64,000 nucleotides of DNA, from assembly GCA_049303675.1 (NCBI GenBank), contig JBAQNJ010000001.1, forward strand, positions 821,443-885,442, read 5' to 3'. The stretch is from Microgenomates group bacterium. Lineage in GTDB: Bacteria; Patescibacteriota; Microgenomatia; UBA12405. Under the pieces are notes generated by a model. The model did not search any database. It had not been told where the DNA came from and saw nothing but the letters and a program-made list of their open reading frames with translations. Below, in pieces: positions 11,675 through 52,097 of the stretch; within the stretch, counting starts at the first letter, position 1; every line of letters begins with the position of its first letter. The translations under genes were made by a program, and so were the position numbers.

Positions 11675-11785
11675 ATTATCAGTAATTATATCTTATAATG
11701 TTATAAAGTCAACAACAAACTAAGAAATAAATTTTAAAACCAAATATAACCTGTCCTAAGGACTTATTTTAAAATTTTTCTTAAG

Positions 11786-11856
11786 TTACCCTGCATGGAT
11801 TCGAACCACAATAAACAGCTCCAAAGGCTGTTGTCCTACCATTAGACGACAGGGTA
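11786..11856 (-). tRNA. tRNA-Gln (anticodon TTG)
   Basis: rc: TACCCTGTCGTCTAATGGTAGGACAACAGC-CTTTGGA-GCTGT...GGTTCGAATCCATGCAGGGTAA; U1:A72 as in many tRNA-Gln. Confidence 0.7.
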
Positions 11857-11860
11857 AAGG

Positions 11861-11942
11861 TGCCGACGAGAGGACTTGAACCTCCACACCTTGCGGCATA
11901 CGCACCTCAAGCGTACGTGTATACCAATTTCACCACGTCGGC
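11861..11942 (-). tRNA. tRNA-Leu (anticodon GAG)
   Basis: rc: GCCGACGTGGTGAAATTGGTATACACGTACGC-TTGAGGT-GCGTA + long variable arm + GGAGGTTCAAGTCCTCTCGTCGGCA. Confidence 0.8.
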
Positions 11943-11964
11943 AGATTGTTAAAAGAGCTCTATA

Positions 11965-12186
11965 TTATACATCCTTTCTCTCTCTACTTATCACCACCAA
12001 GTCACCTTCGCTAAGTTGGCCAGAGATGACACCTTTACCTCTCTCCATTTGAGCAAGGTCTGTTTTTTCAAATCTTTTTACAAGTGGTAACGGATCGCCG
12101 ACATTTGTATAACCTAGACTATATAAATAATCTCTCAAGGAAAATTTTCCGATACAATTATAGATAATTTTTGAATTTTCTATCAT
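11965..12186 (-). CDS. small hypothetical protein (~73 aa); paralog of 12341..12568
   Basis: ORF 11965..12279 truncated to the internal Met because its N-terminus is a translation of tRNA-Val; C-terminus '...GDLVVISRERKDV' is shared with the neighbouring paralog. Confidence 0.4.
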   Translation of the reverse strand: MIENSKIIYNCIGKFSLRDYLYSLGYTNVGDPLPLVKRFEKTDLAQMERGKGVISGQLSEGDLVVISRERKDV

Positions 12187-12188
12187 AG

Positions 12189-12261
12189 TGGCCGCTGAGG
12201 GACTCGAACCCCCGACCACCCCGATGTAAACGGGATGCTCTACCAACTGAGCTAAGCAGCC
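12189..12261 (-). tRNA. tRNA-Val (anticodon TAC)
   Basis: rc: GGCTGCTTAGCTCAGTTGGTAGAGCATCCCG-TTTACAT-CGGGG...GGGGGTTCGAGTCCCTCAGCGGCCA. Confidence 0.8.
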
Positions 12262-12340
12262 AAAGTGTGAAGTTGCCAACTGTGGGGTTTATCCCCAGTC
12301 CGAATGCTTTCGGACAGCTAAGCAGCCATGCTGCTGTATT

Positions 12341-12568
12341 TTACCAATCTTTATGTTCTCTGACTATTACCACCTGTCCTGCCTCAACGTGTTCAGGATA
12401 ATCAATTTTCTCTCTTCTCAAACCTGTAGCCCGCAATACATATGCCTCACCACTTTTAACATCCATAACTCCTACTCTCACAGAAAAATCCCCCAAACAC
12501 ACATCCAAAATTGCATCACACAAGCTTGATACCTTCATCTCTACGGCATTTGTTACACCCTTAATCAT
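12341..12568 (-). CDS. small hypothetical protein (75 aa); paralog of 11965..12186
   Basis: ORF; C-terminus '...AGQVVIVREHKDW' and ~60% nucleotide identity over the last ~40 nt with the neighbouring paralog. Confidence 0.4.
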   Translation of the reverse strand: MIKGVTNAVEMKVSSLCDAILDVCLGDFSVRVGVMDVKSGEAYVLRATGLRREKIDYPEHVEAGQVVIVREHKDW

Positions 12569-12571
12569 CTG

Positions 12572-12595
12572 AGCGAGAGACGGGACTCGAACCCG
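12572..12595 (-). pseudogene. tRNA-Gly 3' fragment (T-arm plus 3' acceptor), exact duplicate of the 3' end of tRNA-Gly(GCC) at 12866..12939
   Basis: rc 'CGGGTTCGAGTCCCGTCTCTCGCTC' identical to the 3' 25 nt of the intact gene; upstream sequence does not fold into D or anticodon arms. Confidence 0.55.
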
Positions 12596-12610
12596 TTGGC
12601 AGCCTGTCGC

Positions 12611-12862
12611 CTAAGGCGACTGCTCAACCAATTTAACTTTTAACCACTCACGACCCTTACCAGACTTTAAAGACTTTTCTCTTCTTAAGGCATCTATTCT
12701 CGTTGGCATATTTTCACCATAAATTAAATCAAATGGAAAAGTTAGTGAAGTATATTTGGATTTACCAGAATTATGTTCCGACATTCTTCTTTCAATATCG
12801 TTTGTCTGGCCTACATATAGTCGATTGTTTACCCGACTTTTAAGTACGTATACAGTAAACAT
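12611..12862 (-). CDS. GIY-YIG nuclease family protein (UPF0213/YhbQ-like)
   Basis: 'FTVYVLKSRVNNRLYVGQTNDIERRMSEHNSGKSKY' motif; paralog of 9479..9739. Confidence 0.75.
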   Translation of the reverse strand: MFTVYVLKSRVNNRLYVGQTNDIERRMSEHNSGKSKYTSLTFPFDLIYGENMPTRIDALRREKSLKSGKGREWLKVKLVEQSP

Positions 12863-12865
12863 TCT

Positions 12866-12939
12866 GAGCGAGAGACGGGACTCGAACCCGCAGCCTTCTC
12901 CTTGGCAAGGAGATGCTCAACCAATTGAGCTACTCTCGC
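12866..12939 (-). tRNA. tRNA-Gly (anticodon GCC)
   Basis: rc: GCGAGAGTAGCTCAATTGGTTGAGCATCTCC-TTGCCAA-GGAGA AGGCTGCGGGTTCGAGTCCCGTCTCTCGCT. Confidence 0.85.
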
Positions 12940-12943
12940 AATT

Positions 12944-12974
12944 CAGTTAACAGATTTCAGTTAACCGTTTACAG
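12944..12974. repeat. GTTAAC-core repeat, left flank of four-helix-bundle gene: CAGTTAACAG-ATTT-CAGTTAACCGTTTACAG
   Basis: read directly. Confidence 0.65.
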
Positions 12975-13344
12975 TTTTTAGCGACCTTATCAAACCGTAG
13001 AGTATTTTACCAGTTAAATCAGCCTGTGTTAATACCGGATTTACATCAAGTTTCGGATACAATTTATTAATAATTTTACATATTGCGACCACCTCAACCA
13101 GTGACTTTCTCGATATGCCCAAAAACTTAATGAAATCTCTTCTGCTGTCAGAAGCACTACCTTCAGCAATATTAATTGCCACCGATGTTGACGCTCTCCT
13201 GATCTGATCACCTAGACCATGCACTTCAAAACTAGGCAACAAAGTATGTAAAAGATATGAAAACTCTACTAACCTTACGGACTCTTCCCACACTTTTAAC
13301 TTTTCAAAATTCTGCATTTTCCTCTGTATACTGTTAACTGCCAT
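12961..13344 (-). CDS. four-helix-bundle protein (TIGR02436 / '23S rRNA intervening-sequence protein' family)
   Basis: 'LKVWEESVRL...LP..E.HGLGDQIRRASTSVAINIAEGS...FLGISRKSLVEV' family signature. Confidence 0.75.
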   Translation of the reverse strand: MAVNSIQRKMQNFEKLKVWEESVRLVEFSYLLHTLLPSFEVHGLGDQIRRASTSVAINIAEGSASDSRRDFIKFLGISRKSLVEVVAICKIINKLYPKLDVNPVLTQADLTGKILYGLIRSLKTVNG

Positions 13345-13359
13345 CCGTTAACTGTTTAG
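13331..13359. repeat. GTTAAC-core repeat, right flank of four-helix-bundle gene: CTGTTAACTG-CCATC-CGTTAACTGTTTAG (direct orientation relative to the left flank)
   Basis: read directly. Confidence 0.65.
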
Positions 13360-13432
13360 TGCCGAAAGTTGGACTCGAACCAACATCCCAGGTTTTTCAG
13401 ACCAGTGCCGTGACCATCTTGGCTATTTCGGC
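13360..13432 (-). tRNA. tRNA-Phe (anticodon GAA), copy 1
   Basis: rc: GCCGAAATAGCCAAGATGGTCACGGCACTGGT-CTGAAAA-ACCTG GGAT GTTGGTTCGAGTCCAACTTTCGGCA; anticodon stem has one U.U mismatch; 73/73 identical to the copy at 39464..39536. Confidence 0.65.
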
Positions 13433-13513
13433 TTAAGAAGTATTTGTATTATACAAAATAAAAATATTTTTGTTCTACTGTATTCTATCAACAGTTAACT
13501 GTTCGCTGTCGAG

Positions 13514-13595
13514 TGCCGTTGAGAGGACTTGAACCTCCACGCCTTGCGGCATACGCTTCTGAGACGTACGTGTATACCAATTTCACCACAACGGC
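13514..13595 (-). tRNA. tRNA-Leu (anticodon CAG)
   Basis: rc: GCCGTTGTGGTGAAATTGGTATACACGTACGT-CTCAGAA-GCGTA + long variable arm + GGAGGTTCAAGTCCTCTCAACGGCA. Confidence 0.8.
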
Positions 13596-13643
13596 AAATC
13601 AAGGTATTATCTCACGAAACAAATTCAGTTTTTATCTTTACAA

Positions 13644-14186
13644 CTATTTAATAACATCCTCAAACAGTTCTTTAGCGCTAAACACTAATGGCAATTTTAA
13701 AACCTCTTCACGAGTAAACCATTTTGCCTCAATTACTTTACTCTCAACATCATCTCTAGTTTCAGTTGTTTCAGATATAGTTTCAAAAAAGAAAATCACT
13801 CCATGATAATTATATTTTGGTGCAATTGCCTCTCTGAAGACTAAGAAACTTAGTTCCTTAGCCACAATTCCAGTTTCTTCCAATATCTCTCTTTTAGCCG
13901 CAATCTCCAGAGTTTCTCCAAATTCAACCTTACCTCCTGGTATTATCCAATAATCCTTGCCTCCTTCTAATGTTTCCCTAACTAACAAGAACTTGTTTTT
14001 ATTTCTTACCAACACGCCAACTATTACTTTTGGTTTCCTTTTTATCATTTCTAACTGAATCTTAGGCGGAATCGGCCGACAACTACACTCTCGGTTGTGA
14101 TCCGTATGCCACTGAATTCTCTCGTTCAAACTTGCCTTTTTAGGCATCTTGTTCTTCTGGTGCCACTCTTTATTTATCTTCGCCAT
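13644..14186 (-). CDS. NUDIX hydrolase with N-terminal Cys/His-containing extension
   Basis: Nudix box 'GGKVEFGETLEIAAKREILEETG'. Confidence 0.8.
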   Translation of the reverse strand: MAKINKEWHQKNKMPKKASLNERIQWHTDHNRECSCRPIPPKIQLEMIKRKPKVIVGVLVRNKNKFLLVRETLEGGKDYWIIPGGKVEFGETLEIAAKREILEETGIVAKELSFLVFREAIAPKYNYHGVIFFFETISETTETRDDVESKVIEAKWFTREEVLKLPLVFSAKELFEDVIK

Positions 14187-14218
14187 TATTTATTTTATAC
14201 CACTCTCTTTATCTCATC

Positions 14219-14292
14219 TGGAGCGGGATGGGGGAGTCGAACCCCCCATATCAGTTTGGAAAACTGAAGTTATACCGATTAACTAATCCCGC
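14219..14292 (-). tRNA. tRNA-Gly (anticodon TCC), CCA encoded
   Basis: rc: GCGGGATTAGTTAATCGGTATAACTTCAGT-TTTCCAA-ACTGA...GGGGGGTTCGACTCCCCCATCCCGCTCCA. Confidence 0.8.
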
Positions 14293-14382
14293 AACGTACA
14301 AATTACTTCATAATTTTACGTTGCAGAAACGTTAATTTGCAAAGCAAATTTTACGTTTCGCAAAATAAATTAAGGTGCAATC

Positions 14383-14442
14383 TAAGTCGGGCTATGCCTA
14401 GACTAAGTTCATAAGACATAGTCGGGCTACGCCTCGACAAAG
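14383..14442. repeat. two tandem ~24-bp direct repeats (TAAGTCGGGCTA[T/C]GCCT[A/C]GAC[T/A]AAG) between tRNA-Gly and tRNA-Pro
   Basis: read directly: 14383..14407 and 14419..14442. Confidence 0.6.
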
Positions 14443-14458
14443 CTCGTAGAGAGCGAAG

Positions 14459-14532
14459 TCGGGGATACTGGATTCGAACCAGCAACCTCACGGTCCCAAA
14501 CCGTGCGCGCTAGCCAATTGCGCCAATCCCCG
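14459..14532 (-). tRNA. tRNA-Pro (anticodon TGG)
   Basis: rc: CGGGGATTGGCGCAATTGGCTAGCGCGCACGG-TTTGGGA-CCGTG...GCTGGTTCGAATCCAGTATCCCCGA. Confidence 0.8.
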
Positions 14533-14557
14533 TTGCTCGTGTATTTTACACGAATTG

Positions 14558-14642
14558 TGCCGCCAGAGGGGATCGAACCCCCACGCTTGTTGAGAGCACA
14601 AGATTTTAAGTCTTGCGTGTATACCAATTTCACCATGGCGGC
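14558..14642 (-). tRNA. tRNA-Leu (anticodon TAA)
   Basis: rc: GCCGCCATGGTGAAATTGGTATACACGCAAGA-CTTAAAA-TCTTG + long variable arm + GGGGGTTCGATCCCCTCTGGCGGCA. Confidence 0.8.
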
Positions 14643-14691
14643 TAATTGTAGAATGTATTATATAATCAAAAGAACAATTTCCCAACAACCA

Positions 14692-15807
14692 ATGAGCAAA
14701 CCCCAATTCTTTAAAACCACCACCGGACTTCATATACCACTGCCAGTATTTTTCCCCGACGCTACCCGAGCCGTTCTCAAAACCCTCGACAGTGCCGATA
14801 TTGAGTCCACCAAAACTCAAGGAATACTAGTCAATACTTTTCATCTCAACAATTTCCCCGGAGGATCGGTTATAAAAGAACACAAAGGTGTCCGCAACTT
14901 TATGTCATGGAGTGGGGGAGTTATCTCCGATTCCGGTGGCTTCCAAGTTATGTCACTTGCCAAAACCCACGATGGCACCAAAAACCCAGTTTCTGACAAA
15001 GGAGTCAACTTTAAAATCCCCGGAACCAGCAAGAAAATTCTTTTTACCCCCAAAATGAGTATCGATTTTCAAATGCTTCTCAAAACTGATATGGTAGTAG
15101 TGCTTGACGATTTTACCGATCTTCAGGCCAACGAGGCCAAGCAACGAGAAACTGTCGAACGAACCGTTACTTGGGCGCGAGTTTGTAAAAAAATATTTGA
15201 CAAAAATTGCTCTGATCGCAAAATATCACCTGAATCTCGACCCTACTTACTCGGGGTTGTTCAGGGTGGTCACAACTTAGAATTACGTCGAGAATGTACC
15301 CAAAGATTGGTCGAAATTGGCTTTGATGGACTGGGCTATGGCGGTTGGCCCATGACCGACGATGGCGAATTTAATTTTGAAATACCCCGAGTTATTGGCG
15401 AAAATGTCCCCGATGATTATTTGCTCTATGGTCTAGGAGTAGGCAAACCACATGAAATAGTCCACATGGTCAAAATGGGCTGGAATGTCTTTGACTGTGT
15501 CCTACCCACTCGTGATGCCCGCCACAAACGACTCTATGTTTATGATGCCAAAACAATTGATGACATCGACTTGTCTACCGATAAATTTTATAAATATTTT
15601 GTCCCCGACAAGGAAATTCATTATCATGACCGCAATCCTGTCAGTACCGCCTGTGATTGTCTACTTTGCACTCGTTACGATCGTTCTTATCTTCGCCACC
15701 TATTTCAAATCGGCGATATGACAGCGGGCCGCCTCGCCACTATTCACAATCTACGTTTTTATTCTATTCTCATGGAGAAGCTACAACCAATTTATGAAAA
15801 AATTTAA
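14692..15807 (+). CDS. tgt: queuine tRNA-ribosyltransferase (tRNA-guanine transglycosylase)
   Basis: start trimmed to 'MSKPQFF' (ORF 14503.. overlaps three tRNAs); 'LYGLGVGKPHEIVHMVKMGWNVFDCVLPTRDARHKRLYV' and zinc site 'CDCLLCTRYDRSYLRHLF' (CxCxxC...H). Confidence 0.85.
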   Translation: MSKPQFFKTTTGLHIPLPVFFPDATRAVLKTLDSADIESTKTQGILVNTFHLNNFPGGSVIKEHKGVRNFMSWSGGVISDSGGFQVMSLAKTHDGTKNPVSDKGVNFKIPGTSKKILFTPKMSIDFQMLLKTDMVVVLDDFTDLQANEAKQRETVERTVTWARVCKKIFDKNCSDRKISPESRPYLLGVVQGGHNLELRRECTQRLVEIGFDGLGYGGWPMTDDGEFNFEIPRVIGENVPDDYLLYGLGVGKPHEIVHMVKMGWNVFDCVLPTRDARHKRLYVYDAKTIDDIDLSTDKFYKYFVPDKEIHYHDRNPVSTACDCLLCTRYDRSYLRHLFQIGDMTAGRLATIHNLRFYSILMEKLQPIYEKI

Positions 15808-16825
15808 TGCCATAAATTTTGGCTGTCGCGTCAATGCCGCCGAAACCAATCAATTATCCCAACAACTAATTGATCAAGGTTATACTTTTGACGATCAAAA
15901 TCCCGACACTATTATTGTCAACACCTGCGCCATAACCAAGAAAGGTGAATACGAATCAATTTATAATATAAAAAAAATATTAAAAGACAACCCAAACATT
16001 AAAATAATTGCCACTGGTTGTGCTAACCTAGAAAAATTAAAAGACCTCAAAAACGTTACCATCCTCAAAAATGTCGACAAGGACAAAATCCAATCCGTCT
16101 ACACTCCCCAAATCAGCGACAAATTTTCTCGCACCCATCGTTATATGCTCAAAGTACAATCCGGCTGTAGTGTCAATTGTACTTTTTGTATCGTCCCCAC
16201 CCGTCGCACCACCCTCAACTCTCTGTCTATCTCAGATGCTGTGAAAACAGTTAATACCGTCGTAGAAAACGGCTATACCGAAGTTATTATCACTGGTGTC
16301 AATCTGGCTCAATATCTCCCCAGCCTCGCCGATTTGGTAGAAGCACTGCTCACCCAAACCAAAATAAAATTAATTTCATTTGGTTCAGTCCCACTGCTTT
16401 GTATCAACGATAAATTCATTGATCTGTTAACTGTAAACCGTTCACGGTTAACTGACTTTCTCCACATTCCTCTTCAATCAGGATCAAATAAAATCTTAAA
16501 ATTAATGCACCGCCCATATCATAAAGAAAAAATACTCAATACCTTTAAATTACTAACTTCCCCCCTTGTTAAAGGGGGGACCGAGGGGGGATTGAAATTC
16601 GGGACCGACATCATCGTCGGCTTCCCCACCGAAACTGACTCCGACTTTCAAGAAACTTATAATTTATGCCAATCTTTAGGTTTTTCTAAAATTCATGTTT
16701 TCCGCTATTCTCCCCGCCCCGACACACCTGCTCGAGAATTGTTCCTCAAAAGTGCTAAAATCCCTAAAACCGTCATTTTAGAAAGGTCAAAACTACTCCG
16801 TCAACTAACACCAACAAATATATGA
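15794..16825 (+). CDS. radical-SAM methylthiotransferase (MiaB/RimO family), N-terminal MTTase domain plus radical SAM core
   Basis: 'IIVNTCAITKKGE' MTTase N-domain; 'CSVNCTFC' CxxxCxxC; no TRAM domain within this ORF; contains an in-frame GTTAAC-repeat copy and a GC hairpin. Confidence 0.75.
   Translation: MKKFNAINFGCRVNAAETNQLSQQLIDQGYTFDDQNPDTIIVNTCAITKKGEYESIYNIKKILKDNPNIKIIATGCANLEKLKDLKNVTILKNVDKDKIQSVYTPQISDKFSRTHRYMLKVQSGCSVNCTFCIVPTRRTTLNSLSISDAVKTVNTVVENGYTEVIITGVNLAQYLPSLADLVEALLTQTKIKLISFGSVPLLCINDKFIDLLTVNRSRLTDFLHIPLQSGSNKILKLMHRPYHKEKILNTFKLLTSPLVKGGTEGGLKFGTDIIVGFPTETDSDFQETYNLCQSLGFSKIHVFRYSPRPDTPARELFLKSAKIPKTVILERSKLLRQLTPTNI
16434..16467. repeat. GTTAAC-core repeat copy inside the methylthiotransferase coding sequence (CTGTTAACTGTAAACCGTTCACGGTTAACTGAC), in frame
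   Basis: read directly; encodes '…LLTVNRSRLTDF…'. Confidence 0.6.
16561..16579. repeat. GC hairpin with TGTTAA loop (CCCCCT-TGTTAA-AGGGGGG) inside the methylthiotransferase coding sequence
   Basis: read directly; encodes 'PLVKGG'. Confidence 0.55.
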
Positions 16826-17106
16826 AAGTCCATATCGCTTCACTCCACTATGCCAGCCTCGAGAACACCCATCCCATTCCCGCCGTCACTATCAAAAAAA
16901 TAGATATTCCCACAGCCAGAACATTTAGATTCGGCCAAGGCCAAATTTTACATATCGGAAGAGATCCGTTTACTATCAGCGCTCAGGTCATTGTTGACGA
17001 CGAACTAGTCAGGCGTGAAGCCTCCGGTACACCCCTAGATATTTACCAAATGACCTTCCACACCAGAGACCCAAAAAAAGTTAAAGTCGTCTCCATCTTC
17101 CCCTAA
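16822..17106 (+). CDS. possible detached TRAM-like C-terminal segment of the upstream methylthiotransferase (ATGA overlap; split or frameshifted gene?)
   Basis: 94-aa ORF starts with ATG overlapping the upstream stop; weak TRAM-like pattern '...IGRDPFTISAQVIV...'; speculative. Confidence 0.3.
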   Translation: MKVHIASLHYASLENTHPIPAVTIKKIDIPTARTFRFGQGQILHIGRDPFTISAQVIVDDELVRREASGTPLDIYQMTFHTRDPKKVKVVSIFP

Positions 17107-19667: not shown

Positions 19668-19739
19668 TAAACAGTTGACAGATTACAGTTTACAGAAAAA
19701 ATCTCTGTTAACTGACAACTGTAGACTGTAAACTGATTA
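19668..19739. repeat. cluster of CAGTT[A/G]AC / ACAGTTTACAG / CTGTAAACTG words between the two tRNA-Arg genes (GTTAAC-core repeat family)
   Basis: read directly: 'aaacagttgacagattacagtttacagaaaaaatctctgttaactgacaactgtagactgtaaactg'. Confidence 0.6.
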
Positions 19740-19811
19740 GCGCCTATAGCTCAATGGATAGAGTACCAGTCTTCGGAACTGGTGATGAGGGTCCGATTCC
19801 CCCTGGGCGTA
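19740..19811 (+). tRNA. tRNA-Arg (anticodon TCG)
   Basis: GCGCCTATAGCTCAATGGATAGAGTACCAGT-CTTCGGA-ACTGG...; acceptor stem has two G.U pairs. Confidence 0.7.
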
Positions 19812-19833
19812 CATATTAATTACAAATTAAAAA

Positions 19834-19850
19834 TTACGAATTACGAATTG
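19834..19850. repeat. ATTACGAATTACGAATT motif (reverse complement of the AATTCGTAATTCG repeat seen at 47.03 and 52.07 kb)
   Basis: read directly. Confidence 0.6.
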
Positions 19851-19899
19851 TTAGGTGTTTTTTGTTGATTTGTAAATTATAATCAGTAATTAACAATTT

Positions 19900-22097: not shown

Positions 22098-22234
22098 AAT
22101 CTACCACTTCAACGCCTGTTCGTAAAGGTTGTAAGTACTTTAATGACATATTCACTTATACACCAATCATCCGCCAAAGGCGGATTGTATTTTGTGGCAA
22201 AATTTTCCCTAGTCATATATTTAATCCCTCTAAA

Positions 22235-22254
22235 TCTCCCCTTAACAGGGGAGA
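22235..22254. repeat. GC hairpin with TTAACA loop (TCTCCCC-TTAACA-GGGGAGA) immediately upstream of the DUF559 gene
   Basis: read directly. Confidence 0.6.
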
Positions 22255-22275
22255 CTTTATGATTAATAATTAAAC

Positions 22276-22692
22276 ATGAAACTTGTTGTCCCCGAAGCGG
22301 TCAATAGCAAAAGAATGTGTGTAGGATATCTTGAGCAATTGACACACATGTCCAGAAAAAACAGGAACAACCCCACAGCGGCAGAGGATAAAATTTGGCA
22401 AGAAGTTTTACGGAAAAGACAAACCGGCTACCTGTTTCTCAGACAAAAGCCAATTTATAGATTCATTACTGATTTCTATTGTGCTGAATTAAAACTCGCT
22501 ATAGAAATAGATGGCAGTTCACACAACAACAAAAAATGCACAGACAAACTTCGTGACCAATTTCTTAAACAAATAGGTATAGACACAATCAGATTTACAA
22601 ATAACGAGATAATCTACAATATAAATGATGTTAAAAATAAACTAATTGCAGTCTTACCCCCTCGTGTTAAAGAGGGGGGAGGGGGAGATTAA
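22276..22692 (+). CDS. DUF559 endonuclease-domain protein (Vsr/restriction-endonuclease-like fold)
   Basis: 'RQKPIYRFITDFYCAELKLAIEIDGSSHN...DKLRDQFLKQIGIDTIRFTNNEI' matches the DUF559 signature. Confidence 0.75.
   Translation: MKLVVPEAVNSKRMCVGYLEQLTHMSRKNRNNPTAAEDKIWQEVLRKRQTGYLFLRQKPIYRFITDFYCAELKLAIEIDGSSHNNKKCTDKLRDQFLKQIGIDTIRFTNNEIIYNINDVKNKLIAVLPPRVKEGGGGD
22657..22678. repeat. GC hairpin with GTGTTAAA loop (CCCCCTC-GTGTTAAA-GAGGGGG) inside the 3' end of the DUF559 gene
   Basis: read directly; encodes 'PPRVKEGGGG'. Confidence 0.6.
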
Positions 22693-22798
22693 GACCAAAA
22701 AATTACAAAAAAAATCCCAGAGCATGCTTTTTAGAGGAGCCACCCCGGGATCTAGCCGCAACTATAACAAATTATATAAGACATGTCAAGGTACGTAA

Positions 22799-23413
22799 CT
22801 AAAACTTACCATTTTCTATTTCTTCGATGAACTGGCGAACTCCGTATGCCCACGAACCATTTGAATGGGGGCAATACTTTTTCATGATCAATTCTGGTGT
22901 ATTCAATCCCTTGTCAAAGTACTGCCTCTTCAAATATTCTGCATACGTTCTCAAGGCTATATCATAGCTCTCAAATTTGAGTGTCCCTGCGCTATTGATA
23001 CCATAACCCCAGCAATTGTGAGAATTCTCGGGAATTTTCTTACATAAATTCGACTCTTGCTGGGCAATTGCCACTATCCAATAATATTCAAAATTATATG
23101 TTTTAGACAAGTCAAAAATTAGTTCCGAATATGGTGCTAGAGGGGACTTGTATTTCTCTAAATATCTTTTAATCAAAAGGGGTCTGGCATCATCCGTCAC
23201 CACCCTTTCTGACACTCCCAAAACAGAGCTGTCAGCTGCATCAACACTGGAAGCTAGAACAACATTTGACCCAGCCTTAGCCAATTTAGATGGTTTGTTT
23301 CCTGCACTATTATTATTTAATAGCAAAATCTCCACCAAAGCTACTACCAACAATAGTGTTGTCAAAACTCCAATAAAAACAAATCTACTTATATCTCTAA
23401 TTAAATCTTGCAT
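22799..23413 (-). CDS. membrane-anchored lysozyme-like (transglycosylase/glucosaminidase-like) protein
   Basis: N-terminal TM; 'YYWIVAIAQQESN...CWGYGINS' resembles lysozyme-like catalytic Glu region. Confidence 0.45.
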   Translation of the reverse strand: MQDLIRDISRFVFIGVLTTLLLVVALVEILLLNNNSAGNKPSKLAKAGSNVVLASSVDAADSSVLGVSERVVTDDARPLLIKRYLEKYKSPLAPYSELIFDLSKTYNFEYYWIVAIAQQESNLCKKIPENSHNCWGYGINSAGTLKFESYDIALRTYAEYLKRQYFDKGLNTPELIMKKYCPHSNGSWAYGVRQFIEEIENGKF

Positions 23414-45106: not shown

Positions 45107-47023
45107 ATGACTGATATTAATAGTCTTGTTGGAATTGGCCCCAAAACTGCTACTGCCTTTCGCCAGATCGGCATCGATCTGGTTGAAAATTTGCTTGACT
45201 ATTATCCTTATCGCTATCTCGATTTTTCCCACACCTTAAAAATTGCCGATTATGATCAAATTTCTCCAGCTACTTATAGTGGTATTGTTCTCAATTTCCA
45301 AAACGTATATACCCGCAGTCACAAAAATATTCAAAAAGCCACTATCAAGGATAGTACCGGCACTCTTGATTTAATTTGGTTTAACTCTCCCTATCTTGCC
45401 AAAATTATTAAAGTTGACGAAATAGTCAATGTCGCTGGTATTGTTAGTCTATACAAACACAGGCCAACTATTATTGCCCCAATGTTGGGTCAAAAAACTG
45501 GCAGAATTATCCCTCTTTACCATCAAGCCCCTGGACTAAGGTCATCCCAGATTGAAAAAATTTTTCACCAGAATCACTCTCAAATTTTCAAAAACATCAC
45601 TGACCCCCTACCTTTATCAATTATTACAAAATATCGGCTGGGTAACTTACTGGATACTTTGACCGAAATTCATTTTCCAACTAGTCAAAAAAACATTTCC
45701 ACTGCTCAGTTGCGTCTTTCTCTGGACCAAGCCCTCCAACTATTGGCTACCTCCAATATTCAAAAAAATATTCTTAATCAAAAAAGAGTTGCCAAAAAAA
45801 TGTCCAAAGTTACACCAATTAATTTTCTACCCTACGAACTGAGCCAATCACAAAAATTATCATGGCAAGAAATCCAAAACGATCTCCTGTTATCCGTTCC
45901 TTGTCATCGGTTGATTTCTGGCGATGTCGGTAGTGGTAAAACCATTATTGCCCTATTGGCCGCCCATATGGCCAGTATCAACCACCAGATCTCCTTGATT
46001 ATTGCTCCCACCCAAGTATTGGCCAAACAGCATTTTGAATTTTTCTCCAATATTCTCCCCCATACTCCCATTATATTTCTCGATAAAAAAACAAAAAAAA
46101 TACCTAGAAACGCCATTATTATCTCCACTCACACCGCCTTTTATAAAGATACAAAGTTCATCAAACAAATCTCGTTGTTAATTATCGACGAGCAACACAA
46201 ATTTGGGGTTAACCAGAGAAACTTTTTGAGTTCCCTTCCCCACCCACCCCACACCATTTCCCTGACAGCTACCCCCATTCCCCGTACTCTAGCCCTATCG
46301 ATTTACGGCCACCTCGATATTTCTTATTTGGACCATTTAGACCGCTGGCACCCAGTCAAAACATTTGTGGTCCCTCCTCCAAAACAAAATAGTTGTTACC
46401 AGTGGCTTGACCAACATATTCAAAAAACCCATCAACAAGCATTTATTGTCTGTCCCTTTATCGAAGACTCCGACACCCTTACCACCGTTAAATCAGTCAC
46501 CAGCGAGTTTGGAAACTTAAAATTATTATTGCCCCACCTTAAACTAGGGCTTATTCATTCCCAGATTAAGTTAGCCCAGCGCCAAAAAATATTTAATGAC
46601 TTTGCCTCAAATAAAATTAATATATTGGTTACTACCCCTATAATCGAAGTGGGCATCGATTATCCCAATGCCGGTGTAATTATAATTCAATCAGCCGATC
46701 GTTTTGGATTGGCCTCACTTCACCAATTGCGAGGACGAGTTGGTAGAGGAGTCGAATTAGGCTATTGTTATTTATTTTCACCAAGGGACAATAGTCGATT
46801 AACTTATCTCGCCAGCCATTACGAGGGCCGACAATTGGCCGAGTTTGATCTCCAGACCCGCGGTCAAGGTAAATTATTTTCTACCATTCAGCACGGACAT
46901 TTCCCCCTCAATACCCAATCGATCGAATTGGCCACCAAAATAATCAAGGATTTAATCAAAGAAAAGTTTGATTTAAATAAATTAACCTCCAACGGTGAAA
47001 AAATAACCAGTTTAAGTAATTAG
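45107..47023 (+). CDS. recG: ATP-dependent DNA helicase RecG
   Basis: N-terminal 'LVGIGPKTATAFRQIGIDLVENLLDYYPYRYLDF', Walker A 'GDVGSGKT', 'DEQHKFGV', helicase C-domain. Confidence 0.85.
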   Translation: MTDINSLVGIGPKTATAFRQIGIDLVENLLDYYPYRYLDFSHTLKIADYDQISPATYSGIVLNFQNVYTRSHKNIQKATIKDSTGTLDLIWFNSPYLAKIIKVDEIVNVAGIVSLYKHRPTIIAPMLGQKTGRIIPLYHQAPGLRSSQIEKIFHQNHSQIFKNITDPLPLSIITKYRLGNLLDTLTEIHFPTSQKNISTAQLRLSLDQALQLLATSNIQKNILNQKRVAKKMSKVTPINFLPYELSQSQKLSWQEIQNDLLLSVPCHRLISGDVGSGKTIIALLAAHMASINHQISLIIAPTQVLAKQHFEFFSNILPHTPIIFLDKKTKKIPRNAIIISTHTAFYKDTKFIKQISLLIIDEQHKFGVNQRNFLSSLPHPPHTISLTATPIPRTLALSIYGHLDISYLDHLDRWHPVKTFVVPPPKQNSCYQWLDQHIQKTHQQAFIVCPFIEDSDTLTTVKSVTSEFGNLKLLLPHLKLGLIHSQIKLAQRQKIFNDFASNKINILVTTPIIEVGIDYPNAGVIIIQSADRFGLASLHQLRGRVGRGVELGYCYLFSPRDNSRLTYLASHYEGRQLAEFDLQTRGQGKLFSTIQHGHFPLNTQSIELATKIIKDLIKEKFDLNKLTSNGEKITSLSN

Positions 47024-47050
47024 TAATTAGTAATTCGTAATTCGTAATTA
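47017..47050. repeat. 7-bp tandem TAATT[A/C]G x4.5 (contains AATTCGTAATTCGTAATT) immediately upstream of the rpmF promoter
   Basis: read directly. Confidence 0.6.
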
Positions 47051-47068
47051 GTTTGTTATAATAGCTCC

Positions 47069-48275: not shown

Positions 48276-48321
48276 TTACATTAAAGAATTAAATCATTAA
48301 AAATTGATTAAAAATTAAAAA

Positions 48322-48350
48322 TTAAAAATTGTAAATTAATTTGGTATAAT
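48322..48350 (+). promoter_or_regulatory. probable promoter of rpsP: A-tract UP-like region plus extended -10 (TGgTATAAT) 8 nt before the ATG region
   Basis: 'aaaaattaaaaattaaaaattgtaaattaatttggtataat'. Confidence 0.45.
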
Positions 48351-51254: not shown

Positions 51255-52088
51255 CTAGTTACTCAACACATTTCCATATGTAGTAATCGCTTCCATAGCA
51301 AAGGCCGGCAACTGATAGAGCTTGGTCACATTAATTTTACGACTCGCCCCTGTGGCCGCTGCACTATCTCCCGCCATTCCCGTCGAGCTAATAACTATTC
51401 CCTGTACCGGGAAAGCCGACCCACCATCACCATACAAATACATCCTCGCTCCACTCCCAATTGGTTTAATCGATAACAATAGGGGTACAATTCCTCCCCC
51501 TAGAGGTGTCGTCAATGCTATTTCTCTATAGCCAGTTATACAGTTTCCCGAGCCAGCCACCGGACCGGTATCACTAAAACCAGAGACATAGCCGGCACTG
51601 GTATTGAATCCCTGATGAGCCACTATAAAATTTGACCCAGCATCCCGATAAAAATAGTCCACCTTCAGTGCTCCGCCAAATCCACTATTAACACATACCG
51701 ATAAATTAGTCCCCGTATAATATGTGGCATAATCAAGACCGCCATCAGCTAGGTGACCCACCAACCAATACTGCAATGTATTATTTACTAGTGTTAATTG
51801 GTTATAATTTATGGTCGTTCCCTGGCCAATATTTGTGACTTTGACATTGGCCCGACTCAGACTGTCCATGGCCACAAATTTGGTCTCGCCAGTGCCTAGA
51901 TAATATTCAATTCCCGACTCGGCGGCATTAAACGCTTGTTTTAATTGCTCCTCATTGGTATCTATTTTGGTGTCAACAACCGTCTTTCTCGACACCGACA
52001 ATCCGACTGTCATCACCACCGCCGAAATCAACAAGACTATTAGTGCCACCTGTCCTTTGTTTTTATTAATTCGTAATTCGTAATTCAT
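51255..52088 (-). CDS. membrane-anchored hypothetical protein in pilus locus (pseudopilin/PilX-like?)
   Basis: N-terminal hydrophobic helix without the canonical G-F-T-L-I-E prepilin motif; first codons overlap the TAATTCG repeat. Confidence 0.4.
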   Translation of the reverse strand: MNYELRINKNKGQVALIVLLISAVVMTVGLSVSRKTVVDTKIDTNEEQLKQAFNAAESGIEYYLGTGETKFVAMDSLSRANVKVTNIGQGTTINYNQLTLVNNTLQYWLVGHLADGGLDYATYYTGTNLSVCVNSGFGGALKVDYFYRDAGSNFIVAHQGFNTSAGYVSGFSDTGPVAGSGNCITGYREIALTTPLGGGIVPLLLSIKPIGSGARMYLYGDGGSAFPVQGIVISSTGMAGDSAAATGASRKINVTKLYQLPAFAMEAITTYGNVLSN

Positions 52089-52093
52089 AATTA
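52067..52093. repeat. TAATTCGTAATTCGTAATTCATAATTA repeat (third copy of the AATTCGTAATTCG family)
   Basis: read directly; overlaps the start codon region of the minus-strand gene 51255..52088. Confidence 0.6.
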
Positions 52094-52097
52094 TTAA

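What the first reader, a model, noticed from the sequence alone, without database searches (positions are those of the whole stretch)
16434..16467. Intergenic-type GTTAAC repeat inserted in frame inside the MiaB/RimO-like methylthiotransferase gene
The 34-nt string CTGTTAACTGTAAACCGTTCACGGTTAACTGAC lies within the coding sequence and encodes '…LLTVNRSRLTDF…'. It has the same architecture as the inter-tRNA repeats (two GTTAAC half-sites around CTGTAAAC). A second G/C hairpin with a TGTTAA loop, which encodes 'PLVKGG', sits 100 nt downstream at 16561..16579. Repeat elements that insert in frame and are tolerated by the protein are rare and usually family-specific, as with MITE- or REP-like in-frame insertions.
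Basis: seen in the sequence. Interest (0 to 1): 0.5.

Follow-up and report, generated by a model that had tools for sequence, protein, structure and literature searches.

The report
Intergenic repeats inside a tRNA-modification gene
A tRNA-modifying enzyme gene of an uncultured Microgenomates (CPR) bacterium holds two kinds of intergenic repeat DNA in frame: a stretch of coding sequence that mimics the genome's 7-base repeat arrays without changing protein length, and a true 40-base hairpin insertion that matches the ends of a small DUF559 nuclease gene unit.

Summary
The string exists, at 16424-16456 rather than 16434-16467. Its likeness to the inter-tRNA repeats is real. These repeats are arrays of 7-nt units (CTGTWAA). 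A matrix built only from intergenic units scores the coding site at 31.0 bits; the next non-array site scores 16.4, and nothing reaches 18 bits in 1.26 Mb of other loci. Given the protein, P is about 1e-6.

It is not an insertion. Residues 211-221 have the same length in 40 orthologs and in solved RimO/MiaB structures. They lie in a confidently folded helix-strand linker and keep L211 and R218. I read it as coding sequence overwritten by array sequence, which is inferred.

The real insertion is the second feature, 16557-16597. It is a 40-nt GC hairpin element in a disordered loop and is present in 22 of 41 orthologs. It is far better conserved in DNA than the host gene, and compensatory changes maintain its stem. 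The same element forms the inverted ends of DUF559 nuclease genes (window 22223-22694 and three other genomes). It also lies solo in spacers, in a second mtaB loop and in ligA. The closest analogues are Rickettsia palindromic elements and REP/RAYT. No description was found. Mobilisation by DUF559 is inferred.

The parts
15794..16825 (+). Host gene: MiaB/RimO-family radical SAM methylthiotransferase, MtaB-like, 343 aa, with no TRAM domain
   Evidence: Pfam UPF0004 (E 3e-16) and Radical_SAM (E 1.4e-19). NCBIfam TIGR00089 scores 257.2, above its 251 cut-off. TIGR01579 (MtaB) scores 282.7, below its 357 cut-off. It is 100% identical to an NCBI 'Microgenomates group bacterium' protein on a 998-kb contig.
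16424..16458 (+). Heptad-array-like coding patch, not an insertion: CTGTTAA CTGTAAA CCGTTCA CGGTTAA CTGACTT, encoding L211-D221 (LLTVNRSRLTD) plus the first two bases of the F222 codon
   Evidence: PWM 31.0 bits against a background maximum of 16.4. P = 1.1e-6 given the protein. Length is conserved in orthologs and in PDB homologues. pLDDT is about 95. T213, V214, N215, R216, T220 and D221 are rare in orthologs (0-5 of 40), while L211 and R218 are kept. The departures from the unit consensus in units 3 and 4 (CCGTTCA, CGGTTAA) are the ones that avoid an in-frame TAA and encode R-S-R (sequence).
16557..16597 (+). Solo 40-nt GC hairpin element, the true in-frame insertion, encoding S256-K268 (SPLVKGGTEGGLK). 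Stem-loop at 16559-16580 and G-rich tail GAGGGGGGATTGAAA at 16583-16597
   Evidence: nhmmer E 2.4e-8 and fold. It lies in the loop between helix 244-255 and strand 268-275, with pLDDT below 50 at residues 260-264. It is present in 22 of 41 orthologs, and the loop varies from 11 to 48 aa. It matches L085 at 38/39 nt where the gene is 71% identical, and L081 at 34/39 where the gene is 61% identical.
22223..22256 (-). Left inverted end of the DUF559 unit: the same hairpin element in reverse orientation, just upstream of the ORF. Its loop supplies a -35-like TTAACA hexamer
   Evidence: nhmmer E 4.5e-5; fold -18.2 kcal/mol, z -3.6; promoter-like match at 22242-22270, 10 of 12 positions. The same arrangement occurs in L089, L091 and L092.
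22276..22692 (+). DUF559 (Vsr-like PD-(D/E)XK endonuclease fold) ORF, 138 aa. Its C-terminal tail LPPRVKEGGGGD and its stop codon are encoded by the right-hand element
   Evidence: Pfam PF04480, E 5.6e-28. Most of 45 homologues inspected end in the same type of tail, and several read through an upstream copy at the N-terminus.
22654..22694 (+). Right inverted end of the DUF559 unit (hairpin element, forward orientation)
   Evidence: nhmmer E 1.3e-6 and fold. It shares the loop TGTTAA with the other two window copies, whereas the copies aligned from the other genomes nearly all carry TGTCAA.
12940..12985 (-). Heptad array between the 5' end of tRNA-Gly(GCC) and the stop of the PF05635 ORF
   Evidence: PWM 32.5 bits. 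It forms an inverted repeat with 13324-13354: 31 nt, 84% complementary.
12961..13344 (-). ORF of the 23S rRNA intervening-sequence protein family (four-helix bundle), bracketed by heptad arrays
   Evidence: Pfam PF05635, E 2.9e-23. A 71%-identical homologue in L088 also lies directly after a tRNA 3' end and has heptad arrays on both sides.
13324..13360 (+). Heptad array between the PF05635 ORF start and the 3' end of tRNA-Phe
   Evidence: PWM 30.1 and 29.7 bits; inverted repeat.
13478..13512 (+). Weaker heptad array abutting the 3' end of tRNA-Leu(CAG)
   Evidence: PWM 20-22 bits; member of direct repeat family D3.
19668..19740 (.). ORF-less pair of inverted heptad arrays filling the spacer between tRNA-Arg(TCT) and tRNA-Arg(TCG)
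   Evidence: PWM 35.1 bits (-) and 34.8 bits (+). It folds into a long hairpin: -22.6 kcal/mol, z -4.4.

Best explanation
Two unrelated families of intergenic repeat DNA have become part of the mtaB-like coding sequence, in two different ways.

(A) 16424-16458 is not an insertion. It is a length-neutral stretch of about 35 nt in which the codons, and several non-essential residues, conform to this genome's heptad arrays (CTGTWAA). These arrays bracket a 23S-rRNA-IVP-family ORF and fill tRNA spacers 3 kb to either side. The key residues L211 and R218 and the reading frame are preserved. The most likely origin is copying of array sequence into the gene, by short-tract ectopic conversion or template switching with the nearby arrays. 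This would have acted on a segment that already resembled them, with selection keeping only the changes the fold tolerates. That origin is inferred.

(B) 16557-16597 is a genuine in-frame insertion of a complete 40-nt GC-rich hairpin element: a C-rich arm, a TTGTYAAA loop, a G-rich arm, then GRGGGGATTGAAA. The same element forms both inverted ends of small DUF559 nuclease gene units. It also occurs as solo copies in spacers and in frame in other loops. It is tolerated in mtaB because it lies in a disordered loop between a helix and a strand of the radical-SAM barrel, where it is translated as a Pro/Gly-rich peptide (SPLVKGGTEGGLK).

Shown: the repeat-family membership, the insertion status, the fold context, the hairpin covariation and the DUF559 association.

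Inferred: that the element spreads as DNA, possibly mobilised in trans by the DUF559 nuclease, in the way REPs relate to RAYT or RPEs spread in Rickettsia.
For: (A) The PWM was trained only on intergenic units. It gives 31.0 bits at the coding site, against 16.4 for the best other site in 128 kb of both strands, and nothing reaches 18 bits in 1.26 Mb. Recoding gave 0/3000 and 0/150. The exact P is 1.1e-6, and the observed score is almost the maximum the protein allows. There is no length change against 40 orthologs or against RimO/MiaB structures. The segment is confidently folded. Orthologs' DNA at this place scores -15 to +9.6 bits, and none has the string. The residues at 213-216 and 220-221 are rare in the family (0-5 of 40), while L211 (39/40) and R218 (38/40) are kept. 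The arrays are real repeats with partners: they bracket the PF05635 ORF here and in L088.

(B) The loop length varies from 11 to 48 aa, and 22 of 41 orthologs carry a PLxKGG-type peptide. pLDDT is below 50 at residues 260-264. Element identity is 38/39 and 34/39 where the host genes are 71% and 61% identical, with 42-46% identity at third positions. The stem is 93.8% paired; 6 of 9 pairs show compensatory changes; 0 of 500 shuffles reach the observed score; slid controls score lower.

The same element forms inverted ends of DUF559 ORFs in four genomes. Most of 45 DUF559 homologues have element-encoded tails. Solo copies occur at the EF-P spacer in L081, L082 and L094, where the window and L089 have the whole unit. 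Other in-frame copies lie in the N-terminal loop of mtaB (L081, L082, L093) and in ligA of L091, where there is a 17-residue gap against PDB 4glw. All three window copies share the loop variant TGTTAA, whereas nearly all copies aligned from other genomes have TGTCAA.
Against: (A) No donor array with the same unit order was found in the 64 kb. The best match is 10+10 identical nt with one extra heptad, or 18/22. Conversion normally needs longer initial homology. Three orthologs (L085, L084, L089) show their own significant 7-nt periodicity at the same place with different units. That fits an older or recurrent process, or a function, better than a single recent event. No strain closer than 77% identity exists in the databases searched, so polarity and timing cannot be read.

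(B) The exact mtaB variant (24-mer) occurs in JGI metagenomes only at this site in mtaB orthologs: 3 hits, all mtaB. This copy could therefore be old, vertically inherited and conserved by selection rather than recently mobile. Copy number per genome is unknown, with only about 1 copy per 5-20 kb seen. No target-site duplication was seen. No experiment links DUF559 to the element.
Confidence: 0.65

Rival explanations
1. The likeness of 16424-16456 to the inter-tRNA arrays is coincidence. An AT-rich codon usage applied to a Leu/Thr/Asn-rich consensus (LLTxNxSRL[ST]xF) produces TTAACT and AAC strings.
For: The family consensus does favour TTA-ACT and AAC. Recoded versions of the gene reach up to 27.4 bits. 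The L089 ortholog reaches 9.6 bits by itself. The site was picked post hoc from a whole window.
Against: The exact P is 1.1e-6 given the protein. Recoding gave 0/3000 at gene level and 0/150 at window level. The score is 15 bits above any other site in the window, and nothing reaches 18 bits in 1.26 Mb. The variable residues are themselves atypical for the family and are the ones the array dictates.
Confidence: 0.07
2. The coding patch is a functional cis-element selected in place. It would be a binding site for whatever factor recognises the heptad arrays, or an RNA hairpin. This would tie the tRNA-modification gene to the neighbouring tRNA clusters through regulation, a transcription roadblock or RNA processing.
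For: The codon choice is near the maximum possible match. The patch can form a 9-bp hairpin, -9.2 kcal/mol, z -2.05. Orthologs L085, L084 and L089 also show significant 7-nt periodicity at the same position, P 0.0002-0.008. The gene sits between TGT and tRNA clusters that carry the arrays.
Against: The orthologs' units differ (CTCGTAA, CNAGTTA, CTTTYAA) and do not match the window's PWM. Five of nine orthologs show no significant periodicity at the 1% level. No factor is known. The hairpin is weak.
Confidence: 0.2
3. The PLVKGG loop is an ordinary, vertically inherited protein-level insertion that was lost repeatedly. Its likeness to DUF559 tails reflects convergent Gly-rich low-complexity sequence, not a DNA element.
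For: The exact 24-mer was found only in mtaB orthologs. The insertion is always at the same loop position.
Against: Nucleotide identity in the element (87-97%) far exceeds that of the host gene, which is 42-46% at third positions. The stem is kept by compensatory changes. Copies with the same 40-nt architecture lie in non-coding spacers and at both ends of DUF559 ORFs, in the reverse orientation on the left. The extended variant GGGAGA..CGGC.AAGCCGAGAGGGATT is shared by the L092 DUF559 end and the L093 mtaB loop. The window's copies share a genome-specific loop variant.
Confidence: 0.08
4. The hairpin elements are host structural motifs (terminator or mRNA-stabiliser type, like many REPs). On this view the DUF559 genes are homing nucleases that insert next to or into them, so the hairpins are targets rather than ends of a mobile unit. 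The solo copies would then be the ancestral state.
For: Solo copies occupy the same EF-P spacer site in L081, L082 and L094 where the window and L089 have the full unit. All sit just past a conserved terminator-like hairpin. The Vsr/DUF559 fold includes a group I intron homing endonuclease (PMC3424549).
Against: This does not explain in-frame copies inside mtaB and ligA. Both ends of the DUF559 unit are complete copies in inverted orientation, not two halves of a split target.
Confidence: 0.2

Closest known systems
Rickettsia palindromic elements (RPEs; Ogata et al. 2000, 2002, as reviewed in PMC10969869)
   Same: Both are dispersed palindromic repeats found in frame inside unrelated housekeeping genes, translated as extra peptide in places compatible with the fold, and also present in non-coding DNA.
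   Different: RPEs are about 100-150 bp, are AT-rich like their hosts, and have no known associated nuclease gene. This element is 40 nt, is GC-rich in a 40% GC genome, and forms the inverted ends of DUF559 ORFs. No sequence relationship was tested or is expected.
REP / REPIN elements with their RAYT transposase (PMC2817692, PMC3116915, PMC3733652; seen in the listing, not read)
   Same: Both are 20-40-nt imperfect GC-rich palindromes whose stems are kept by compensatory change, with solo copies scattered in spacers. In both, a small nuclease-type gene is flanked by two copies in inverted orientation.
   Different: The flanked gene is DUF559 (PD-(D/E)XK, Vsr-like), not an IS200/IS605-type Y1 transposase. 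There is no GTAG or CGTC head. Copies occur inside genes. Copy number is unknown.
Intervening sequences (IVS) of 23S rRNA that carry the PF05635 ORF (established knowledge; Pfam family name)
   Same: The heptad arrays bracket a PF05635 ORF as 31-nt inverted repeats that could form a processing stem.
   Different: Here the unit lies between tRNA genes, not in 23S rRNA. In L088 the flanking arrays are direct rather than inverted. The arms are built of 7-nt units. An ORF-less array pair and a coding-sequence copy also exist.
MITEs that create in-frame fusions (ERIC, BOX, Correia, Nezha; PMC10969869)
   Same: These are short non-autonomous repeats that can lie within ORFs.
   Different: The solo copy is one end (one hairpin plus tail), not a pair of terminal inverted repeats. 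No target-site duplication and no DDE transposase partner were seen.

Membership tests
MiaB/RimO/MtaB radical SAM methylthiotransferases (host gene) | N-terminal UPF0004 domain with three conserved Cys | tested here: met
   PF00919, E 3e-16. C11, C45 and C76 are invariant in 41 sequences.
MiaB/RimO/MtaB radical SAM methylthiotransferases (host gene) | Radical SAM CxxxCxxC motif and domain | tested here: met
   PF04055, E 1.4e-19. C125, C129 and C132 are invariant. TIGR00089 scores 257.2, above its 251 cut-off.
MiaB/RimO/MtaB radical SAM methylthiotransferases (host gene) | C-terminal TRAM domain; equivalog score for MtaB (TIGR01579) | tested here: not met
   There is no TRAM hit, and the protein ends at residue 343, at profile position about 360 of 416. 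TIGR01579 scores 282.7, below its 357 cut-off. All close orthologs are equally short.
In-frame palindromic repeat insertions of the RPE type | Member of a dispersed repeat family with copies in non-coding DNA | tested here: met
   About 25 copies were found in about 270 kb of Microgenomates loci, in spacers, at DUF559 ends and in coding loops.
In-frame palindromic repeat insertions of the RPE type | In-frame presence in unrelated genes, absent from orthologs | tested here: met
   mtaB helix-to-strand loop in 22 of 41 orthologs; mtaB N-terminal loop in L081, L082 and L093; ligA in L091, with a 17-aa gap against PDB 4glw.
In-frame palindromic repeat insertions of the RPE type | Insertion site compatible with the fold (surface loop) | tested here: met
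   In the AF2 model (mean pLDDT 90.5) the insertion is the only internal segment with pLDDT below 50 (residues 260-264). It lies between helix 244-255 and strand 268-275.
   There is no length difference from 40 orthologs or from RimO/MiaB structures.
In-frame palindromic repeat insertions of the RPE type | Sequence homology and size (about 100-150 bp) of the Rickettsia RPE families | tested here: not met
   The element is 40 nt and GC-rich. Homology to RPE sequences was not tested.
REP/RAYT (REPIN) systems | 20-40-nt imperfect palindrome with a stem maintained across copies | tested here: met
   A 9-bp stem, 93.8% paired. Six pairs show compensatory changes and 0 of 500 shuffles reach the observed score.
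REP/RAYT (REPIN) systems | Associated gene flanked by inverted copies is a RAYT (Y1 transposase of the IS200/IS605 type) | tested here: not met
   The flanked ORF is PF04480 DUF559 (E 5.6e-28), with weak hits only to other PD-(D/E)XK families. The arrangement is analogous.
REP/RAYT (REPIN) systems | Conserved GTAG or CGTC head; strictly extragenic location; more than 100 copies per genome | tested here: not met
   The alignment shows no GTAG or CGTC head, and copies occur inside genes. Copy number cannot be tested with 64 kb of this genome.
23S rRNA IVS elements (for the heptad arrays) | PF05635 ORF bracketed by inverted repeats able to form a stem | tested here: met
   PF05635, E 2.9e-23. Arms of 31 nt, 84% complementary.
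23S rRNA IVS elements (for the heptad arrays) | Located inside a 23S rRNA gene and excised from the rRNA | tested here: not met
   It lies between tRNA-Phe and tRNA-Gly. Rfam finds only tRNAs in the window. Excision cannot be tested here.
Phase-variable simple sequence repeats in coding DNA | Perfect or near-perfect tandem units prone to slippage | tested here: not met
   The five units are all different (CTGTTAA, CTGTAAA, CCGTTCA, CGGTTAA, CTGACTT).

The most novel reading that the evidence does not exclude
DUF559 (Vsr-like) nuclease genes with 40-nt hairpin-containing inverted ends would be the autonomous form of a previously undescribed selfish-DNA system in CPR/Microgenomates. Their solo ends would spread into spacers and, in frame, into loops of essential genes such as mtaB and ligA. 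This would be a REP/RAYT-like or RPE-like system built on a PD-(D/E)XK nuclease. In parallel, a second repeat class (7-nt arrays associated with 23S-rRNA-IVP ORFs and tRNA ends) would be able to overwrite coding sequence without changing its length.
Probability: 0.35. Interest if true: 0.8.

Novelty: new variant of a known kind. Interest (0 to 1): 0.6.

Why it matters
In-frame 'selfish' palindromes in essential genes are best documented for Rickettsia RPEs (PMC10969869). Finding an analogous but much shorter GC hairpin element in tiny CPR genomes suggests the phenomenon may be wider than thought.

It also gives a concrete, testable role for DUF559, a very widespread domain of unknown function: it may be the nuclease partner of a hairpin repeat. 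The association of DUF559 ORFs with inverted hairpin ends was consistent across the four genomes and about 45 homologues examined.

It also matters for annotation. Pro/Gly-rich tails and loop inserts in CPR proteins (PLVKGG..., SLVKGR...ERD) are translated repeat DNA, not functional motifs.

The length-neutral, array-mimicking coding patch is odd in its own right. It suggests that repeat arrays can imprint their sequence on neighbouring genes. The 7-nt periodicity at the same position in some orthologs is unexplained.

Tried and rejected
1. GTTAAC enrichment was rejected: 12 sites against 16.5 expected. The signal lies in the 7-nt unit arrays, not in the hexamer.

2. The search for related loci on genome contigs returned mostly distant MiaB/MtaB homologues. 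Only L001-L006 were CPR-like, so close orthologs were fetched one by one.

3. The metagenome scan for CCCCTTGTYAAAGGGGGGACCGAG gave 3 hits, all at the same mtaB site. The pattern was too specific to reveal dispersed copies.

4. The recurrent C-terminal tails 'QTTLPSHQKPxI' in orthologs looked like a third repeat. They are the antisense reading of the conserved C-terminus (..FDEMEVWFGR) of the convergent GTPase gene, which overlaps mtaB in those genomes.

5. The hairpin string 'SSLRGASSDEAIS' in the same loop of L084 was suspected, from memory, to be a GIY-YIG-associated repeat. No other copy was found in any fetched locus, so nothing is claimed.

6. Rfam gave only tRNAs in the window and nothing for 22680-22810.

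7. The literature searches found no paper linking DUF559 to repeats, none on heptanucleotide repeats in CPR, and none on in-frame palindromes in Patescibacteria. The library is incomplete.

8. DNA for the closest PF05635 homologue (P0122, 86% identity) could not be fetched.

9. The conserved 50-nt motif after the DUF559 unit was considered as a small RNA. It is more simply the intrinsic terminator of the convergent 204-aa gene.
Full report
**Context**

The finding lies in ORF 15794-16825 (+), 343 aa. The ORF has a UPF0004 domain and a radical SAM domain. It passes the MiaB/RimO family cut-off (TIGR00089). It scores highest with the MtaB model (TIGR01579) but falls below that model's cut-off, because it lacks the C-terminal TRAM domain. 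It is identical to a protein of an NCBI 'Microgenomates group bacterium' on a 998-kb contig. The nearest other sequences are 74-77% identical and mostly Candidatus Shapirobacteria. The gene follows TGT, converges on a GTPase gene, and sits between two tRNA clusters. The window is 39.9% G+C.

**Observation check**

The quoted string is present once, at 16424-16456 (33 nt). It encodes L211-D221. The GC hairpin CCCCCCTTGTTAAAGGGGGG is at 16560-16579 and encodes P257-G262.

GTTAAC itself is not enriched: 12 sites against 16.5 expected. The 8-mer GTTAACTG/CAGTTAAC occurs at 9 places: 6 in tRNA spacers, 2 in this string and 1 elsewhere.

**What the inter-tRNA repeats are**

Read in register, they are arrays of 7-nt units with consensus C-T-G-T-[TA]-A-A. 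The arrays are at 12940-12985 (-), 13324-13360 (+), 13478-13512 (weaker), 19668-19695 (-) and 19705-19739 (+).

- The first two arrays are 31-nt inverted repeats, 84% complementary. They bracket ORF 12961-13344 (-), which belongs to Pfam PF05635, the 23S rRNA intervening-sequence protein family.
- The 19668-19740 pair has no ORF. It fills the spacer between two tRNA-Arg genes and folds into a long hairpin (z -4.4).
- A 71%-identical PF05635 homologue from another sample (L088) also sits directly after a tRNA 3' end. It has heptad arrays on both sides (CAGTCAA CAGTCAA CAGTTAA...), and these score 32-35 bits with the window's matrix.

So the arrays are a heritable companion of this ORF lineage and of tRNA ends. 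Other AT-rich heptad arrays (AATTACG/AATTAAA types) lie in several spacers of the window and of related loci.

**Is the coding string one of them?**

Statistically, yes. A log-odds matrix built only from 21 intergenic units, summed over four consecutive units, gives these scores:

| Site | Score |
|---|---|
| Coding site 16424-16451 | 31.0 bits |
| True intergenic arrays | 30-35 bits |
| Best other site on either strand of the window | 16.4 bits |
| Any site in 1.26 Mb of other fetched loci | below 18 bits |

The protein was then held fixed and codons drawn from the window's usage. None of 3000 recoded mtaB genes and none of 150 recodings of all 55 long ORFs reached 31 bits; the maxima were 27.4 and 22.2. 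An exact enumeration gives P = 1.1e-6, and the observed score is 31.0 of a possible 31.48.

The departures from the unit consensus in units 3 and 4 (CCGTTCA, CGGTTAA) are the ones that avoid an in-frame TAA and encode R-S-R. This can be read directly from the sequence.

**Is it an insertion?**

No.

- In an alignment of 41 orthologs the segment has the same length within 2 residues. L211 is conserved in 39/40, R218 in 38/40, F222 in 35/40 and H224 in 40/40.
- Solved RimO (4jc0) and MiaB (7mjz) align through it with a single 1-residue gap.
- The AlphaFold model (mean pLDDT 90.5) places it as the end of helix 206-214, a short linker, and strand 222-224, with pLDDT about 94-95.
- No ortholog whose DNA I could read has the string. 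Their scores with the window's matrix are -15 to +9.6 bits.
- The residues the array dictates (T213, V214, N215, R216, T220, D221) are rare in the family, at 0-5 of 40.

The simplest reading is that array sequence was copied over a tolerant, already somewhat similar stretch of the gene. Candidate mechanisms are short-tract ectopic conversion or template switching; arrays lie about 3 kb to either side. Selection would then have kept the frame and the two key residues. This step is inferred. No exact donor is present in the window; the best partial matches are 10+10 nt with one extra unit, and 18/22.

**An unexpected complication**

The same position of the gene has the gene-wide highest lag-7 autocorrelation in the orthologs L085 and L089 as well (top 0.1% of windows), and is in the top 0.5% in L084. 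The units there are different: CTCGTAA, CTTTYAA and CNAGTTA. Recoding nulls give P = 0.0002 (L085), 0.0006 (L084), 0.008 (L089) and 0.001 (window). L082 is marginal (P 0.027), and L081, L083, L002 and L003 show nothing.

This hints at an older array-derived segment, at recurrent imprinting in each genome, or at a DNA/RNA-level function. I cannot decide between these.

**The second feature is the real insertion**

Residues 256-267 form the loop between helix 244-255 and strand 268-275. This loop holds the only internal stretch with pLDDT below 50, residues 260-264. RimO and MiaB are 3-6 residues shorter there.

Among 41 orthologs the loop varies from 11 to 48 residues. Twenty-two carry a P-[LSR]-x-[VSI]-K-[GRE]-G...G-G-[FL] peptide, sometimes with extra G-rich units, and the nearest relatives differ in state.

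At DNA level the insert is a 40-nt element: a C-rich arm, a (T)TGTYAA(A) loop, a G-rich arm, 2-4 nt, then GRGGGGATTGAAA.

| Comparison | Element identity | Host gene nt identity | Third-position identity |
|---|---|---|---|
| Window vs L085 | 38/39 | 71% | 46% |
| Window vs L081 | 34/39 | 61% | 42% |

Across 16 copies the 9-bp stem is 93.8% paired. Six pairs change on both sides (C-G to U-A), 0 of 500 shuffles reach the observed score, and all slid controls score lower.

**The element is dispersed and tied to DUF559**

In the window, two more copies bracket ORF 22276-22692 in inverted orientation, at 22223-22256 (-) and 22654-22694 (+). That ORF is Pfam DUF559, E 5.6e-28. The right copy encodes the protein's tail LPPRVKEGGGGD and its stop codon. 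The same layout occurs in three other genomes, L089, L091 and L092:

TTTTCAATC..CCCCTTTGACAAGGGG - DUF559 ORF - CCCCTTGTCAAAGGGG..GATTGAAAA

Most of 45 inspected homologues (51-80% identity) end in tails such as PLVKGGRGD, SLVKGRDGEAERD, IPLLSKRG or PLLVKGGVRGGL. Several read through an upstream copy (PSLTRGG...). These are the same peptides as in the mtaB loops. For example, the P0058 loop SLVKGRDGEAERDL matches the P0241 tail.

Solo copies occur at these places:
- in the EF-P spacer of L081, L082 and L094, where the window and L089 have the whole unit;
- in other spacers;
- in the N-terminal loop of mtaB in L081, L082 and L093;
- in frame in NAD-dependent DNA ligase of L091, where solved LigA (4glw) shows a 17-residue gap.

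L093 has five copies within 2.4 kb around mtaB. All three window copies share the loop TGTTAA, whereas nearly all copies aligned from the other genomes have TGTCAA. This points to within-genome homogenisation or common descent of a genome's copies.

One caveat applies. The exact 24-mer of the mtaB copy was found in JGI metagenomes only at this mtaB site. This particular copy may therefore be old and conserved rather than recently moved.

**Mechanism**

Shown: repeat membership, insertion status, fold context, covariation and the DUF559 association.

Inferred: the hairpin element propagates as DNA and persists where it lands in frame in a flexible loop, being translated into a Pro/Gly-rich peptide. 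The DUF559 nuclease, a Vsr-like PD-(D/E)XK fold grouped with a group I intron homing endonuclease in PMC3424549, is the obvious candidate for the enzyme that moves it or homes next to it. The left end also supplies a -35-like hexamer (TTGACA, or TTAACA here) 17 nt from AATAAT, upstream of the ORF.

**Comparison with known systems**

The closest analogues are Rickettsia palindromic elements, which are in-frame, fold-compatible insertions (PMC10969869), and REP/RAYT, in which a hairpin repeat flanks its nuclease gene in inverted orientation.

The element fails defining features of both. It lacks the size and sequence of RPEs. It has no GTAG/CGTC head and no Y1 transposase, and unlike REPs it is not restricted to extragenic DNA. 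The heptad arrays resemble the inverted repeats of 23S rRNA IVS elements that carry the same ORF family, but here they lie between tRNA genes.

I found no description of either phenomenon in the searchable literature.

**Verdict**

- The 'insertion' reading is wrong for the string it was made for and right for the second hairpin.
- The system around the hairpin (DUF559 units with hairpin ends, and solo copies in frame in essential genes) looks like an undescribed variant of known selfish-repeat systems.
- The length-neutral array patch remains partly unexplained.

Noticed in passing
window 11780-14650: The minus-strand tRNA cluster is interrupted by small ORFs. These are a GIY-YIG nuclease ORF (12611-12862) and two paralogous 74-75-aa ORFs with no Pfam hit (11965-12190 and 12341-12568, ending ..VVISRERKDV and ..VVIVREHKDW). 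A perfect 28-nt duplicate of the tRNA-Gly 3' part lies at 12568-12595 and 12863-12890, and further tRNA fragments lie at 12583-12638. This looks like repeated insertion of selfish ORFs at tRNA genes, or possibly intron or integration remnants.
   Followed up: partly
window 19810-19859, 47008-47059, 48295-48342, 52056-52106; L092 14025-14076 and 18593-18637; L091 5738-5873: AT-rich arrays of 7-nt units (AATTACG, AATTAAA, ATTACAG types) occupy many intergenic spacers of this and related Microgenomates genomes. One lies in the rpmH-dnaA spacer of L092. Their function is unknown.
   Followed up: partly
L085 6007-6043; L089 3875-3909; L084 mtaB region 1: Orthologs of mtaB show their own significant 7-nt periodicity at the position that matches window 16424-16458, with different units. 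L085 has a perfect CGTAACT x2.
   Followed up: partly
L091 3026-3085 (-): There is an in-frame copy of the GC hairpin element inside NAD-dependent DNA ligase of a Candidatus Shapirobacteria genome (GCA_016188545.1). It adds about 17 residues (..LPFLSKRGLRQQSEGEIES..) relative to solved LigA structures.
   Followed up: yes
window 16822-17106: A 94-aa ORF with no Pfam hit lies between mtaB and the convergent GTPase gene. In orthologs (L082, L084) the two genes instead overlap tail to tail. That overlap gives mtaB the recurrent C-terminal 'QTTLPSHQKPxI', which is antisense to the GTPase C-terminus.
   Followed up: partly
window 22693-22760 (-): A roughly 50-nt hairpin plus U-run (GAUCCCGGGGUGGCUCC..GCUCUGGGAUUUUUUUU) is conserved almost base for base in the window, L081, L082, L089 and L094, immediately beside the DUF559 unit or the solo hairpin. 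It is probably the intrinsic terminator of the convergent 204-aa gene. It has no Rfam match.
   Followed up: partly
L084 4425-4465: In the closest ortholog that lacks the GC element, the same loop holds a different hairpin-like string: TCGTCATTGCGAGGAGCTTCAAGCGACGAAGCAATCTCG, encoding SSLRGASSDEAIS. P0007, P0027 and P0028 have related peptides. No other copy was found in the fetched loci.
   Followed up: partly
window 15794-16825 and all close orthologs: This whole clade of MtaB-like enzymes (327-379 aa) lacks the TRAM RNA-binding domain that defines canonical MiaB, MtaB and RimO.
   Followed up: no
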